Origin: a virus
Taxonomy: Duplodnaviria; Caudoviricetes
Strand: one strand, 5' to 3'
DNA length: 47,537 bases
Virus record (IMG/VR): IMGVR_UViG_3300012942_000010
Location: 1-47,537 of that record
Below the pieces are notes generated by a model that worked only from the letters and a program-made list of their open reading frames with translations, searched no databases and was not told the DNA's origin. The translations under genes and the position numbers were made by a program. Positions 4,625 to 36,203 of the stretch are shown piece after piece (position 1 is the stretch's first letter; each line of letters opens with the position of its first letter).

Positions 4625-5388
4625 CCGAGATTACGACTAAAGAACTGTTCGAACTGGCAAAGATCAGTTACAACGAAGGTTTCAACCACTTTCCGGCGGA
4701 TGACGCTGTTGACTGGGATGACCTTCCGCCGATCGACCAGGCTGTAATGGCTGAGGGTATTCGAAAGGTTGTCGAAGAATTGGAGCGTCGAGGGTGGAGT
4801 GCCAACGCCTACGGCGAGCGGTACACACCGACTGCGGTTGACGGTAACCCGTTGGAAAATTTCGACAACGTGCTAGACCCTACACAATGGTTCGCTGATG
4901 CGGCCAATATGCATATCGACCAGGATATCTTGACTGGTACGTATCGTCGCTGGCTCGCGGGTGAGCCTGCACCGTTCCGCCACGGCGAAGCTCGGTGTCG
5001 GGTATCAGCTGACGACGCTATCGCCAAAGCGTACGCGGACAGTGATTCGTGGAATCGGTGGGAGGACGTTCCGGTGGGTGTAACCGTCGAATCAACAAAG
5101 GGTTTTCACATCACTAAAGTAGCGGGTTATAACGAAAACTACGACATTGCTGGTCCCTTCGTCCGAGTGGACGAAACAGAGTACAAGGAAGAGGGCTACG
5201 AGTGGTCGCATTGGGAGGATGTGCCGGAGGGTGTTGTTTATAAGAACAGCAAGCCGTTGCACCGTGCTCGGTACGTCAACCGTGACGGTGTCCGTATCCT
5301 GCTAAAGCTTGACGGGTCGGAAGTCGTTTCCGAGGTATCCGACGATCATGTACAAGCGTTCGCACCGTTTATCCGAGTGGAGGGCTGA
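4621..5388 (+). CDS. Hypothetical protein with two C-terminal WxxWEDVP...PFxRV repeats
   Basis: GGAGG RBS; internal repeat visible in the translation. Confidence 0.75.
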   Translation: MTEITTKELFELAKISYNEGFNHFPADDAVDWDDLPPIDQAVMAEGIRKVVEELERRGWSANAYGERYTPTAVDGNPLENFDNVLDPTQWFADAANMHIDQDILTGTYRRWLAGEPAPFRHGEARCRVSADDAIAKAYADSDSWNRWEDVPVGVTVESTKGFHITKVAGYNENYDIAGPFVRVDETEYKEEGYEWSHWEDVPEGVVYKNSKPLHRARYVNRDGVRILLKLDGSEVVSEVSDDHVQAFAPFIRVEG

Positions 5389-5561: not shown

Positions 5562-5728
5562 CTAACCACTACAAAGTCGAGTGGTCCGACGAAGACAACG
5601 AGTACGTAGCTACGTGCACCAAGTTTCCGTCTTTATCCTGGCTGGACGAACACCCGGTGATTGCACTGCGCGCACTTATAGCCCGGGTTCGAGAAACGGA
5701 GCTGTACATTGCGACCAACGTTCGATGA
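5558..5728 (+). CDS. HicB-like antitoxin-domain protein (56 aa)
   Basis: MTNHYKVEWSDEDNEYVATCTKFPSLSWLDEHPVIAL matches the HicB N-terminal pattern WS-ED-E-V--C--FPSLSWL. Confidence 0.72.
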   Translation: MTNHYKVEWSDEDNEYVATCTKFPSLSWLDEHPVIALRALIARVRETELYIATNVR

Positions 5729-27430: not shown

Positions 27431-27508
27431 ATGAATATCCTTTTTCCGTAAACTCGTCAGTTTGGGCGAATGCCCGGACCACGCATTAACCGCCGCGTGT
27501 AGGCGTTG

Positions 27509-27579
27509 CTCCCCGGGCTGGAATCGAACCAACTAGGGCCACATTTCGTAGTGGCGCTCATCCATTGAGCTTCCGGGGA
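27509..27579 (-). tRNA. Atypical tRNA (Arg-ACG-like) with an 8-nt anticodon loop
   Basis: TCCCCGG/CCGGGGA acceptor, GCTC-AATGGAT-GAGC, GCCAC-TACGAAAT-GTGGC, GTTGG-TTCGATT-CCAGC. Confidence 0.7.
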
Positions 27580-27585
27580 AGTTTG

Positions 27586-32328: not shown

Positions 32329-32562
32329 ATGGACGACGATGTACAGGTTCCGTACGCGCTCGAAGAACTGGACTCGGGTGTATGGCTGGGATACGCATAC
32401 CCGAAACCTGGTGAAATGGTGTGGGGTCGCGGTGCGACCCGTGAAGAGGCTATAGCCGATATCCGGGTGAAGTGCCTGGAGGCTCTTACCGGAATTCAAC
32501 ACCCGAAGCGCCGTACTGATACGAGTCTGCGTGAAAGTCGTAATTCAGATGAGCCCCAGTAG
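32329..32562 (+). CDS. HicB-like protein, leaderless, antisense to the late arm
   Basis: ELDSGVWLGY...GRGATREEAIADIR; TATTAT 6 nt before the ATG. Confidence 0.65.
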   Translation: MDDDVQVPYALEELDSGVWLGYAYPKPGEMVWGRGATREEAIADIRVKCLEALTGIQHPKRRTDTSLRESRNSDEPQ

Positions 32563-33106
32563 CTACGTATCCGTACCAGCCTGCCGGGACGTTGCACACG
32601 ACATCGTCATGGTTGCAGACCTCTAGGACCGGAACCGGGCCGAACCAGTCGTCTACACCCGCAAGCGGCCAACCGATGATCCGGTTACCCGGGATGCTAG
32701 CCAGACCGGCTCCGGCCGGTCCAGCTGCACGCTTGGGATCCGCAATGAGTACGGCTGAGGTATCCGCGACCGGGTTGTCAGTAACCCATGCGTGGATGAT
32801 TGCAGCGCCTTCAGAATGCCCGACCAGCTTAATGTGGTCGGCCGGACACACCGCCCGGTGACGCCAGTACGCGCGGTCCAGCTCCGAGTAACCCTGAGCC
32901 GGGTTCAGCGTGTCGTACTGAACTCGCTGATCGGCGTAGACGTATGAAGAGTCTTCCCAGGTTCCCGAGTACACGGAGACCTTGGCACCGCCAACACCGA
33001 TGGAGTAATCGCCGGTGCAGCTCACCGGAGCGGCTGTTGCGGGTGTCGCGAAATAAATACTTACGGCCGTAAGTACGGAGCTAAGCGCTAAGGCTAGTTT
33101 CTTCAT
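32486..33106 (-). CDS. Secreted PE-PPE/cutinase-family alpha/beta hydrolase
   Basis: Sec signal MKKLALAL...ATA; GHSEG nucleophile elbow; IADP; DDVVC; late His. Confidence 0.85.
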   Translation of the reverse strand: MKKLALALSSVLTAVSIYFATPATAAPVSCTGDYSIGVGGAKVSVYSGTWEDSSYVYADQRVQYDTLNPAQGYSELDRAYWRHRAVCPADHIKLVGHSEGAAIIHAWVTDNPVADTSAVLIADPKRAAGPAGAGLASIPGNRIIGWPLAGVDDWFGPVPVLEVCNHDDVVCNVPAGWYGYVATGAHLNYDFHADSYQYGASGVEFR

Positions 33107-33587
33107 ATGCATCTTTTTTCGAAGAGTTACAAGAACGATGGGCAAGCTGAAGATTCGACGGAGAATCCGAACCACCCTTTGACCGTGGAATAATGTGGTC
33201 GAGTGTTGCCGCCATCCGGTCGCGTTTACCGTCCAACGTTTGGTCAACCCGTTCTCCACAGATTCCACACGTCCAGTTGTCCCGCTTGTAAATCACCATG
33301 CGCTGAACGGTTGTAATCCACCCGTCTGCGTAGCGAGCGAACTCACTTCGGTAGCTCCGACCAGTACGCTCTTTAAACCGCTTCTGGAACTCACGTTGTG
33401 TAGATGCTTGATACCCCCTACAGACATCACAACGACATCCGTACGAATAACACTGGTAGGTACCGTGCGCGTTCTTAGCTAGCTCGGTCCGGCAGGCACG
33501 ATGCATTGCCTGACCTGGAGGAAGGGACCTACCGTTAGGTTGGAACAGTTCCCCGCAGTACGCACACGGGTACGGCTTACGAGGCAT
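33081..33587 (-). CDS. HNH endonuclease with N-terminal zinc motifs
   Basis: RDNWTCGICG, TLDHIIPRSKGG and LAHRSCN. Confidence 0.9.
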   Translation of the reverse strand: MPRKPYPCAYCGELFQPNGRSLPPGQAMHRACRTELAKNAHGTYQCYSYGCRCDVCRGYQASTQREFQKRFKERTGRSYRSEFARYADGWITTVQRMVIYKRDNWTCGICGERVDQTLDGKRDRMAATLDHIIPRSKGGSDSPSNLQLAHRSCNSSKKDAYEETSLSA

Positions 33588-33727
33588 CGGAAAATCCCTA
33601 AGTTAAGAGGGGCTAAGACGAGTTTTTAAGCCGGGGAGGGATCGGCCGCTATGTGTCGAGAGAGGCCCGCGCGGAGGGTGGGAGGGTCACCCCCCTAGGG
33701 TGGTGTTTGTCAAGGGGTTGACAAGAA

Positions 33728-33916
33728 CTATTTCAAAGAATCTTTCAAAGCCTTCCACCGAGGATTCACGGTTGACCGACAGCACATGCACTCGCATACA
33801 CCACGCATGCCCGTATTGCGGTCTGGACGGACCGTAGACGGCTCAGGATTGCTCAGGTGGCCATCTACCTCGAATAGGCTGAGTTGGCCTTCACAAGGCT
33901 CGTACACGATCACCAT
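33728..33916 (-). CDS. Hypothetical protein
   Basis: AGGA RBS; overlaps the HNH stop. Confidence 0.55.
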   Translation of the reverse strand: MVIVYEPCEGQLSLFEVDGHLSNPEPSTVRPDRNTGMRGVCECMCCRSTVNPRWKALKDSLK

Positions 33917-34200
33917 TCCTGACTGGTTGGAAACAGATCAGCCTTAGTGGCTTGTCGATTGCCTCGTGAGGAGTTGCACTTACGATGTGCAGCTTTGAGG
34001 TTGGACATGTCCGTAAGCGCACCACCACGCGAGCGTGGCACTACATGGTCAGCAGTCCATGACATTGGATCTGTGTATGGCAATGACTGATCAATCTCTT
34101 TACGACATATCCAACACACAGAGCTAGTAGCACGTAGGCGCTTAGTGGTTCGCCTATAGGCTCTATGATCTAAGCCTTTACGTGGCTTAGCATAAGCCAT
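33910..34200 (-). CDS. HNH endonuclease (HK97 gp74-like packaging cofactor)
   Basis: CWIC, ADHVVP and AHRKCN; small and upstream of the terminase module. Confidence 0.88.
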   Translation of the reverse strand: MAYAKPRKGLDHRAYRRTTKRLRATSSVCWICRKEIDQSLPYTDPMSWTADHVVPRSRGGALTDMSNLKAAHRKCNSSRGNRQATKADLFPTSQEW

Positions 34201-34231
34201 AATAAAACAACCTTGCTTCGAAGATTAAAGG

Positions 34232-34409
34232 TGAGTCGTACGGGAATCGAACCCGTATGCACAGTGCCCTGTGGAGTGCCATCTCTCCCAACGACGGATT
34301 CGAACCGTCACCTATCCAAGGAACTCACCAAGCTAAAGCGTAGGTGCTCTACTGAGGAGCTAAGCGTCTACCGTGAAACGGAATTACGACTGCAAAGTCA
34401 CTACGACTC
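34232..34409 (-). ncRNA. Nested tRNA-like RNA with two T arms
   Basis: Outer GAGTCGT/ACGACTC-A plus ACGGG-TTCGATT-CCCGT; inner D arm plus GACGG-TTCGAAT-CCGTC. Confidence 0.7.
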
Positions 34410-34811
34410 AGGAACACCTACGCATCTAGTGATGTACCAGCATTGCTACGAGACTTGCACATGCGTGCGTACACCAAGTATTAAGCCGACCCTTAAAGGT
34501 CGGCGCAGGTCACTGACCGATCAGGTACGGACCGACGATACGAAGGATGTCTAGTACGTCCTTGACCAACTGAACTAGGTCATTCAGCATTTAATACCCT
34601 TAAGTAGAGCGAGCCTTCGGGGCTCGCGATAAGTAGTTACTGACTAGGACCGCCCTTGGTGGGCGGTCTAACAGTCAGTGGTTACGTGAGGTACGTAGGT
34701 TACGTACCGAACTTGGTCTGTCGCTGCTATCGCAGCTCTGACGCTCGGTCGGTCGCTTCGCTCCCTCCCTCACTAGTCTATTAACTCTGATTTTTCGAGA
34801 ATGCCTTAGAT

Positions 34812-34827
34812 TGTGACCTAGTTCACA
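34812..34827. promoter_or_regulatory. CRP/GlxR-type site TGTGA-N6-TCACA
   Basis: TGTGACCTAGTTCACA is a perfect consensus in the divergent control region. Confidence 0.6.
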
Positions 34828-34871
34828 TGATTATTTGGGTCTGCACAGGCGACTGAAGCTTGGTCTTCGAC

Positions 34872-34884
34872 CTTGACAGTGTCG
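34872..34884 (+). promoter_or_regulatory. Operator CTTGACAGTGTCG
   Basis: 12/13 match to the 13-mer. Confidence 0.8.
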
Positions 34885-34929
34885 AAAACAGCTTGCTACC
34901 TGCAAGAACAAAAGTCGGTACAACACGAG

Positions 34930-34959
34930 CTTGACAGTGTAGGTCGGTAACCGTAGTGT
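34930..34959 (+). promoter_or_regulatory. Main early promoter TTGACA-N17-TAGTGT overlapped by the operator (34930-34942)
   Basis: Read directly; arrangement as for L5 Pleft. Confidence 0.85.
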
Positions 34960-34965
34960 TCATGG

Positions 34966-35283
34966 AGTCAGGCCAACCGGTTCACCGGGAAGCCAGACAC
35001 CGGAGGACACCCCAAGCGGGATCGCAAAGCGATCAGTGCGTGAGCCAGTCCCGAAGTTGATACCTCCGGTTAGGTCAGAGGCTTTCGAGCCTCTGGGGTG
35101 GCGCTACGACCATGACACGGTGGCGAGAACGTCTGAACTACTCGGAGTAGCTTCTACCATCACCACACTGGGGCTCTGAGCAAGCGGACGAGTACCCAGA
35201 CGATACGGGCGAGAGCGTTGGTTCACAGATACGCCGAGACCGCCCACACCATCTCCGGATGAGGCAAAATACGGGTACACACA
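34966..35283 (+). ncRNA. Structured non-coding early leader, 5' domain
   Basis: No long plus-strand ORF; ACCGGAGG/CCTCCGGT, GATCGC-AAA-GCGATC, AGAGGCT-TTCG-AGCCTCT and CTACTC/GAGTAG stems. Confidence 0.55.
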
Positions 35284-35523
35284 GGGTCTGTAGCTCAATG
35301 GCAAAGCACGGATATGGAAGGCTGTTAGCACGCCTATGAGCCACACTTCGGAAACTGAGTGTGGACGGCACACGGTGAAGCGACTGAGGGCTAACCCCCC
35401 GGACGAGCGATAATCCGCTAGCGCAACGGTTGGGAGCTTCATAGTGAACGCTCTAGCACTCTCGGACATAGAGAGACCTGATCCTTCCTAAGTCTAATCC
35501 CGGTTCGATTCCGGGCGGACCCA
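35284..35523 (+). ncRNA. tRNA-like RNA with a ~160-nt structured insert replacing the anticodon loop
   Basis: GGGTCTG/CGGACCC-A, TAGCTCAATGGCAAAGC, CCCGG-TTCGATT-CCGGG; GGAAGG/CCTTCC closes the insert. Confidence 0.78.
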
Positions 35524-35551
35524 CTGCAAAACAACAAACGGAGGTAAGAAC

Positions 35552-35683
35552 ATGAGTCGAGAAGTACTGCCGATGTACGCGGGTATCTGCAAAGTTACCT
35601 ACTCCGGTACCGACGAAAGGCACGGGTATTACCTCAATATCAACGGTTGCCCTGATTGCAACAACCGAAAGGTAAAGCAATGA
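35552..35683 (+). CDS. First early small protein (43 aa)
   Basis: GGAGGT RBS; CPDC motif. Confidence 0.6.
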   Translation: MSREVLPMYAGICKVTYSGTDERHGYYLNINGCPDCNNRKVKQ

Positions 35684-35871
35684 TGGATACAGGTGGAGAT
35701 GTATTGGTTCTCCCACTCCAGGAGGCATTGTACAAGGCTAACGAATTGCGTTCCCGTGGTGTCAATGCGGATGCCGTTGCTTATCCAGTCCCCTACTCAG
35801 TAGGCATAGATCCTCCGGATTCAAAGTACGCTATAAGTACTCCGTTGGGATTCTGGCGAGTAGGTGACTAG
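35680..35871 (+). CDS. Early hypothetical protein
   Basis: GAAAGGT RBS; ATGA overlap. Confidence 0.65.
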   Translation: MMDTGGDVLVLPLQEALYKANELRSRGVNADAVAYPVPYSVGIDPPDSKYAISTPLGFWRVGD

Positions 35872-35936
35872 TTAGAGCGGAGCCGGTCCCGTACCGGCTC
35901 CGTTCGAATTATTCAGAACAACTGAAAGGTAAGGAA

Positions 35937-36128
35937 ATGATCTCTGAATACGAAGCGCGTATAGCTCGGTGGGCTGGTCGGTTCGACTTGGACCGGCTCA
36001 CCCCTGAGCAAGCCGAAGGCTTTGCGTGTGTGTCGTGTGGGGGCACCGCAGGGCCATTCGTTGTAGTCGGCAGTGGGAAGCAAAGCTCTCACGTGTTCGC
36101 CTGTGTCGCCTGCGATAAATCCCAGTAG
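35937..36128 (+). CDS. Early small zinc-finger protein
   Basis: CVSC...CVAC; GAAAGGT RBS. Confidence 0.7.
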   Translation: MISEYEARIARWAGRFDLDRLTPEQAEGFACVSCGGTAGPFVVVGSGKQSSHVFACVACDKSQ

Positions 36129-36203
36129 TCCAGATGGTCACCAGTCGGGTTTTAATCCGCCTGGGGGCTGTCTAGACCGCTGGAATCACTATCAGGAGTA
36201 ACA

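What the first reader, a model, noticed from the sequence alone, without database searches (positions are those of the whole stretch)
34232..34423. tRNA-within-a-tRNA element with a possible conformational switch at the head of the late arm
Seen on the minus strand: an outer acceptor GAGTCGT/ACGACTC followed by A-C-C, stacked on a T arm ACGGG-TTCGATT-CCCGT. Inside is a second tRNA core with no acceptor stem: D arm TA-GCTC-CTCAGTA-GAGC, stem ACCTA/TAGGT with a 26-nt loop, and a second T arm GACGG-TTCGAAT-CCGTC (34293-34309). An upstream 9-mer GCGTAGGTG (34423-34415) is perfectly complementary to CACCTACGC (34346-34338) and would disrupt the inner core. The element ends about 30 nt before the first late-arm ATG (34200). 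Inference: a double-elbow tRNA mimic or processing-dependent switch; 5' cleavage by RNase P would remove the competing strand.
Basis: partly seen in the sequence, partly recalled or inferred. Interest (0 to 1): 0.8.

Follow-up and report, generated by a model that had tools for sequence, protein, structure and literature searches.

The report
Two-elbow tRNA mimic in phage leader
A soil phage related to mycobacterial cluster A phages carries, just ahead of its first late gene, a roughly 97-base tRNA look-alike with two T arms and no anticodon, a design that recurs in other phages; it is likely cut out by the host's tRNA-processing enzymes and would act as a decoy rather than read codons.

Summary
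(1) 34423-34338 is a long hairpin. It is kept with compensatory changes ahead of the HNH gene in the 3 closest relatives. The same layout occurs in a close relative's early leader, in another GC-rich phage and in a covarying phage family. A model built without the window finds it (37 bits, against 20.5 for the best true tRNA). Phage T5 RNA2 is a named precedent; no Rfam family fits. Its upstream acceptor strand stays a possible alternative partner. The closest relatives lack the element at this site, so it is accessory. No RNA data; processing and decoy role are inferred.

The parts
34230..34329 (-). Two-T-arm, anticodon-less tRNA-like RNA. Predicted mature body 34326-34230; 34329-34327 GGU pairs with the terminal ACC.
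   Evidence: MFE and pair probabilities; model R1, built without the window, hits 34227-34331 at 37.1 bits, E 5e-9; geometry table
34321..34326 (-). Local 5' acceptor strand GAGTTC; pairs with 34238-34233 in 5 of 6 positions (one U-G, C-C at the junction)
34311..34321 (-). Small 3-bp hairpin with a GG-bearing loop (D-loop-like, no.1)
   Evidence: pair probability 0.80; same slot holds TTGGA(T/C)A or TGG loops in family A, L026 and L276
34293..34309 (-). T arm 1, perfect 5-bp stem and TTCGAAT loop
34273..34288 (-).
   Evidence: Rfam tRNA alignment; pair probability 0.78
34261..34272 (-). 4-bp hairpin with a 4-nt GGCA loop in place of an anticodon arm
   Evidence: same GGCA-loop hairpin in L026
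34239..34257 (-). T arm 2 with a 6-bp stem
   Evidence: L026, L276 and family A also have a 6-bp stem on a 6-bp acceptor
34230..34238 (-). 3' acceptor strand, discriminator A34232, then CC (followed by T, so no encoded CCA)
34338..34423 (-). Separate conserved late-leader hairpin: outer stem 34423-34412/34349-34338, 2-nt bulge 34351-34350, inner stem 34411-34407/34356-34352, conserved GTAANTCC at 34387-34380
   Evidence: folding z -3.5 to -3.8 in window, G001, L276 and L277; compensatory pairs and a kept U-G wobble; alignment
34403..34409 (-).
33910..34200 (-). HNH endonuclease gene, first late-arm ORF; AAGG ribosome-site-like motif at 34214-34211
   Evidence: PHROG and Pfam; start matches G001
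34749..34771 (-). GAGGGAGG...GACCGA motif at the head of the late leader, shared with RGL3, CosmicSans, G001, L276, L142 and L151
   Evidence: that it marks the start of late transcription is inferred

Best explanation
The element is a ~97-nt tRNA mimic (34326-34230) with two T arms, two GG-bearing loops and no anticodon, inserted in the late leader; it is likely excised by host RNase P and 3' tRNA-trimming enzymes and would act as a stable decoy for proteins that grip the tRNA elbow. Shown: the parts, the 6+6-bp top half ending in A-C-N shared with other phage elements, the position between a conserved hairpin and the HNH ribosome site, and absence at this site in relatives. Inferred: transcription as part of an abundant late leader; a cut before G34326 and after ACC, with possible CCA repair, which would also give the late mRNA a new 5' end 29 nt before the HNH start; and two elbows formed by each GG loop docking on a T loop. 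The decoy step is the weakest. It is preferred because one T arm suffices for processing (single-arm mimics exist in other actinophages), while this class keeps two, and the element is an accessory sitting in highly transcribed leaders. The upstream hairpin is a separate conserved RNA motif.
For: T arms beyond chance. Free MFE gives hairpin plus local element; closing stem probability 0.967. Model R1 from 18 family-A sequences, window excluded, hits the element at 37.1 bits against 20.5 for the window's best true tRNA; it also hits L026 at 39.0 and L276 at 35.9. Family A structure: 97.8% of cells paired, 9 of 26 pairs with two-sided change, 0 of 500 shuffles as high, slid controls 42-55%. Window, L026, L276 and family A share a 6-bp T stem on a 6-bp acceptor and an A-C-N tail. 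Of 120 viral loci with close T loops, 69 had both stems perfect, 48 of those were not tRNA T arms, and 35 of the 48 (22 distinct cores) were closed by a terminal helix, against 15% in shuffles. T5 RNA2, annotated as a tRNA-like stable RNA, has two T arms 52 nt apart; the window's are 53 apart. In the related phage WC1 the left-end non-coding region is the most highly transcribed feature late in infection (PMC10986025 section 17); the same head motif occurs at the left end of its cluster-mate CosmicSans. In L5 most P-left transcripts end at 51,140-51,190 (PMC5712189 section 11), where I find a tRNA-shaped element.
Against: No expression, processing or binding data for this phage. No direct orthologue was found, so this copy has no covariation of its own: absent at this site in 3 of 3 close relatives (L276 and L277 have near-identical hairpins, so two lineages), and no close double T loop in 5 of 5 related records or 84 further loci. 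R1 rewards any two T arms, so its hit shows class, not descent. The local acceptor has a C-C mismatch at the junction, and GGU pairs with the terminal ACC, which could hinder RNase P. The Levitt pair is not met (G15 with U or A before the T stems). The two T arms can cross-pair (each 0.46 in the ensemble). Folding z of the short element is only -1.65. Family A's T arm 1 never varies on both sides and was part of the search pattern. No target for a decoy is identified.
Confidence: 0.45

Rival explanations
1. A decaying or inert inserted copy of such an element, or a fused remnant of two tRNA genes, with no present function.
For: Absent at this site in 3 of 3 close relatives; C-C mismatch in the acceptor and no encoded CCA; the 3' half scores as a weak tRNA (25.8 bits, below the 29-bit threshold); T arm 2 is identical over 20 nt to a tRNA T arm of G001.
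Against: Both T arms, the D arm and an 8-bp closure are intact, and the order of parts and the 6+6 geometry match unrelated phage elements, which random fusion would not be expected to give.
Confidence: 0.2
2. A cis-acting element only: a processing mark or stable fold that defines the 5' end, stability or translation of the HNH/late mRNA, with no role once released.
For: It ends 29 nt before the HNH start. Single-arm mimics in SWU2, Cafasso, Octobien14 and MrMiyagi end 31-47 nt before the next start codon, and L026's element also precedes a ribosome site.
Against: A second T arm is not needed for that role; close relatives express the same HNH gene without the element; T5 RNA2 is annotated as a stable RNA.
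Confidence: 0.2
3. A processing-dependent switch, the reader's idea in modified form: cutting the conserved hairpin frees GAGUCG at 34409, which captures the 3' acceptor strand, frees ACC and makes a ~180-nt RNase P substrate.
For: The distal strand is a perfect 6/6 (7/7) partner in the same register; with the hairpin's 5' strand removed it has probability 0.95 and the two folds are close (-58.6 against -57.4); the local fold sequesters ACC.
Confidence: 0.08
4. A bacterial Y RNA (YrlA-like) or the tRNA-like domain of a tmRNA.
For: A T arm followed by a D arm recalls the YrlA order.
Against: No Rfam YrlA or tmRNA match at E up to 5; no tmRNA by ARAGORN; no GNCGAA motif and no acceptor hairpin between T and D; no TROVE/Ro60 hit among the 44 window ORFs scanned against Pfam (not all 202 ORFs).
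Confidence: 0.02

Closest known systems
Phage T5 RNA2 (GenBank AY543070, 32959-33083, annotated 'tRNA-like stable RNA with unknown functions')
   Same: One terminal acceptor helix holding two T arms about 52 nt apart, a D-like arm, a small hairpin before the last T arm, no anticodon loop.
   Different: 125 nt; its inner T arm is nested in an extra stem; 5-bp last T stem; lies in a tRNA cluster; scores only 16.5 bits with R1. Same kind of RNA, homology not shown.
Canonical tRNA (Rfam RF00005)
   Same: T arms, one D arm, 12-bp top half, discriminator plus CC.
   Different: No 7-nt anticodon loop, two T arms, 6+6 rather than 7+5 geometry, Levitt pair not met; 25.8 bits against threshold 29, and not called by ARAGORN.
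Bacterial Y RNA YrlA (Rfam RF02553; PMC4201824)
   Same: Anticodon-less tRNA mimic found in bacteria and phages, with a T arm upstream of a D arm.
   Different: No Ro60-binding motif, no closed acceptor hairpin between T and D, a second T arm, no Ro60 gene found, no Rfam match.
Abundant non-coding RNAs at the genome ends of cluster A and CA actinophages (L5/D29, PMC5712189; WC1, PMC10986025)
   Same: Same phage lineage and same kind of location (leaders at the cos junction).
   Different: The sections I read describe abundance, processing and toxicity but no tRNA-like fold; the studied L5 RNA is from the early leader, not the late one.
Rfam SpF41 sRNA (RF02435)
   Same: Weak match through the T arm.
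   Different: 25 bits against threshold 52, E 0.62; not a member.

Membership tests
tRNA (RF00005) | Score at or above the gathering threshold, or an ARAGORN call | tested here: not met
   25.8 against 29 bits; no call
tRNA (RF00005) | 5-bp anticodon stem with a 7-nt loop | tested here: not met
   4 bp with a 4-nt loop at 34272-34261
tRNA (RF00005) | T arm and D arm consensus | tested here: met
tRNA (RF00005) | Aminoacylation | not testable with these tools
   needs experiment
YrlA Y RNA | GNCGAAN0-1G motif near the 5' end (PMC4201824 section 6) | tested here: not met
   absent from 34430-34228 by reading the sequence
YrlA Y RNA | Closed acceptor hairpin between the T and D arms | tested here: not met
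   only 4 nt between T arm 1 and the D arm
YrlA Y RNA | Ro60/TROVE gene within about 4 kb | tested here: not met
   no such hit in 44 ORFs against Pfam or 27 against PHROGs, including the flanking ones
tmRNA | ARAGORN or Rfam tmRNA model | tested here: not met
Two-T-arm phage tRNA-like RNAs (uncatalogued class; model R1) | Two intact T arms inside one terminal helix, each preceded by a GG loop | tested here: met
Two-T-arm phage tRNA-like RNAs (uncatalogued class; model R1) | 6-bp T stem on a fully paired 6-bp acceptor, tail A-C-N | tested here: inconclusive
   T stem and tail met; local acceptor 5 of 6, distal partner 6 of 6
Two-T-arm phage tRNA-like RNAs (uncatalogued class; model R1) | Common descent with family A, L026 or L276 | tested here: inconclusive
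   similarity lies mostly in the T arms; GGCA-loop hairpin shared with L026
T5 RNA2-type stable RNA | Inner T arm nested in an extra stem | tested here: not met
T5 RNA2-type stable RNA | Accumulates as a stable RNA during infection | not testable with these tools
   needs RNA from infected cells

The most novel reading that the evidence does not exclude
Phages widely encode a class of bivalent, anticodon-less 'double-elbow' RNAs that are cut from their strongest leaders and soak up host tRNA-elbow-binding proteins, such as tRNA-targeting defence nucleases or stress sensors. In this phage, release is gated by a new conserved late-leader hairpin whose cleavage swaps the acceptor partner and frees the 3' ACC. 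The tRNA-shaped modules would also explain the abundant, toxic and essential end-of-genome RNAs of cluster A mycobacteriophages.
Probability: 0.12. Interest if true: 0.85.

Novelty: new variant of a known kind. Interest (0 to 1): 0.52.

Why it matters
Phage tRNA-like stable RNAs of unknown function are long known (T5 annotations), but the two-T-arm design has no Rfam family and appears in many phage groups. This copy ties the class to the genome-end leaders of cluster A/CA-like actinophages, whose very abundant non-coding RNAs are reported as toxic and partly essential with no known mechanism (PMC5712189). That makes an open question testable in laboratory phages. The conserved late-leader hairpin is a second uncatalogued motif.

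Tried and rejected
BLAST of the element and of 33600-36200 against cultured phages: only T-arm-sized matches or none. HNH, repressor and terminase searches of viral contigs gave one close relative, G001; metagenomes gave L276 and L277. The pattern for the hairpin stem gave 43 loci, of which I recognised only G001 as related; part of that printout was cut. The genome contigs pattern gave 2 hits, neither a two-T-arm structure by eye. The pattern with GGGAG after T arm 1 gave 14 loci, mostly tRNAs followed by a fragment. The promoter/terminator scan found no sigma-70 site and no terminator at the element. No RNA holder listed. The second DNA run covered only 34979-35129. Alignment A1 held one wrongly oriented row (L242) and was replaced by A3. 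In one search the local closing stem was entered one base off and was corrected. In one search the automatic acceptor pick for L221 was wrong; its acceptor is taken. Literature searches listed no paper describing two-T-arm phage RNAs. The library lacks most subscription and older papers, and I did not read the supplementary candidate lists of PMC10690425, which may hold this class.

Full report
Context. The window is a complete 47.5-kb virus record. It has a serine integrase, a cluster-A-type repressor (38% to Rhodococcus phage RGL3), DNA polymerase, ThyX and a minus-strand late arm of HNH, five tRNAs, terminase, portal and capsid. An actinomycete host is inferred. The finding lies in a stretch without a minus-strand ORF of 60 aa or more, between a motif at 34771 shared with RGL3, CosmicSans and four uncultured relatives and the HNH start at 34200.

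Observation. The two T arms are far beyond chance: 8 arms in the window against 0.15 per shuffle, and no pair within 70 nt in 200 shuffles. Rfam gives only sub-threshold matches to tRNA (25.8 bits, 34232-34297) and SpF41; ARAGORN calls nothing here.

The 'competing 9-mer' is the conserved helix. Folding 34432-34222 freely gives a long hairpin followed by a separate short element, at -76.9 kcal/mol. The three closest relatives, G001 (HNH 72%, terminase 76%), L276 and L277 (HNH 76-77%), all carry the hairpin ahead of the same HNH gene. It keeps a 12-13-bp outer stem, the same C-G, U-A, U-G pairs beside a 2-nt 3' bulge, and a 4-5-bp inner stem, with compensatory changes further out, z-scores of -3.5 to -3.8 and a shared GTAANTCC. 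L276 and L277 are near-identical here, so this is three lineages counting the window. None has T arms between hairpin and HNH. The hairpin matched no Rfam family.

The element proper. The window has about 105 extra bases between hairpin and ribosome site. They fold as: closing stem 34329-34322/34237-34230 (probability 0.967), a 3-bp hairpin with a GG loop, T arm 1, four bases, a canonical D arm, a 4-bp hairpin with a GGCA loop, a 6-bp T arm 2, the 3' strand, then A-C-C. There is no anticodon loop.

It belongs to a class. Of these, 69 had both stems perfect; in 21 the first arm belonged to a tRNA; 35 of the other 48 (22 distinct cores) were closed by a terminal helix, against 15% in shuffles. 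A narrower pattern gave 41 viral loci, 37 of them by eye one family ('A') with the window's order of parts. On 18 distinct family-A sequences the structure covaries: 9 of 26 pairs change on both sides, 0 of 500 shuffles match, and slid controls fall to about half paired; T arm 1 itself is invariant and was selected for. A covariance model from these alone finds the window's element at 37.1 bits, E 5e-9, against 20.5 for the best true tRNA. It also finds L026, a GC-rich phage's intergenic element with the same GGCA-loop hairpin (39.0 bits), and a compact version in the early leader of the close relative L276 (35.9 bits). Window, L026, L276 and family A share a 6-bp last T stem on a 6-bp acceptor and an A-C-N tail. 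The model rewards any pair of T arms, so this shows a shared design, not descent. In that register the window's local acceptor has a C-C mismatch, offset by GGU pairing with the terminal ACC, and the distal GAGUCG is a perfect alternative. That match has a 6-14% chance, is not conserved, and wins only if the hairpin's 5' strand is gone.

Known relatives. An earlier scan note (e1-6107528) pointed to the T5 RNAs; I checked the record. RNA2 is annotated as a tRNA-like stable RNA of unknown function and has two T arms 52 nt apart within one acceptor, though its inner arm is nested in an extra stem. YrlA's defining features (PMC4201824, passages and section 6) are not met. For cluster A phages, PMC5712189 (passages, sections 10 and 11) reports very abundant, processed, toxic RNAs from the early leader, one part of which could not be deleted; most transcripts end at L5 51,140-51,190, where I find a tRNA-shaped element. 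For WC1, PMC10986025 (passages, section 17) reports the left-end non-coding region as the most highly transcribed feature late in infection. A D29 preprint (10.1101/2025.11.21.689395, passages) reports transcription across the cos junction. PMC11143913 (passages) notes that T4 tRNA precursors lack CCA and that RNase P prefers it; P1/P7 C4 RNA as an RNase P substrate I saw only as a reference title there. PMC10690425 (passages) mentions tRNA-like candidates; its supplements were not read. CCA addition by actinobacteria and elbow recognition by RNase P and other proteins are from established knowledge, not from a call.

Mechanism. Most likely the leader is transcribed late, the hairpin folds first, and the short element folds behind it and is cut out by host tRNA-processing enzymes, leaving a stable anticodon-less RNA and a late mRNA starting just ahead of the HNH ribosome site. 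Single-arm mimics in other actinophages suggest that one arm is enough as a processing mark. The second arm, the accessory distribution and the placement in strong leaders therefore point to a role of the released RNA as an elbow decoy. All of this is inferred; I put it at 0.45, with inert remnant 0.2, cis-only mark 0.2 and switch 0.08. Against it stand the lack of RNA data, the lack of a direct orthologue, the acceptor mismatch, the unmet Levitt pair and predicted cross-pairing of the T arms.

Verdict. Interest 0.52.

Noticed in passing
window 35284-35523 (+): A second tRNA-framed RNA in the early leader: 7-bp acceptor, D arm and T arm, with a ~190-nt folded insert in place of the anticodon arm; missed by ARAGORN and Rfam. 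G001 has a similar frame with an ~80-nt insert and encoded CCA (L167 738-860, minus).
   Followed up: partly
L324 833-929 (-), phage L5 51,132-51,228: tRNA-shaped, anticodon-less element at the 3' end of L5's abundant P-left non-coding RNA; the deletion that could not be made (51,195-51,407, PMC5712189) overlaps its 5' part.
   Followed up: partly
L319 1199-1244, L320 803-850 and 218-263, L321 799-844, L322 801-847, L276 842-887 (-): Unannotated ~45-nt mimics (6-bp acceptor, GG loop, 6-bp T arm, then ACG or similar) between early genes of SWU2, Cafasso, Octobien14, MrMiyagi and L276, several per genome.
   Followed up: partly
L022, L050, L052 and similar loci: A recurrent ~135-nt family that reads as two complete tRNA cores joined through their anticodon stems; no Rfam family at threshold other than tRNA.
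   Followed up: partly
window about 27507-27581 (-): Probable tRNA gene (anticodon ACG by eye) just before the ORF at 27532-26933, not called by ARAGORN; G001 and L151 have a tRNA-like T arm at a comparable place.
   Followed up: no
L215 about 5575-5640 (-) and L216 about 5208-5266 (-): By eye, tRNA-like frames with a T-arm-like hairpin in the early leaders of RGL3 and CosmicSans.
   Followed up: no
window about 33700-33625 (-): Sequence matching both ends of the linear record G001 and resembling the ends of CosmicSans; likely the cos region, which would place the HNH gene and this leader on the other side of cos from the tRNAs and terminase.
   Followed up: no
window 33081-33587 and 32486-33268 (-); L144 900-3030: A second HNH gene and a cutinase-like ORF precede the tRNA cluster; G001 has 21 T arms in this cluster against 5 tRNAs in the window.
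   Followed up: no
window 34870-34945 and about 36540 (+): Repeated TTGACAGTGT motifs, like cluster A stoperator or promoter sites (label recalled).
   Followed up: no
L186, L191, L195, L204: A conserved non-coding-looking stretch with a similar terminal stem in unrelated low-GC contigs; not the same motif.
   Followed up: no
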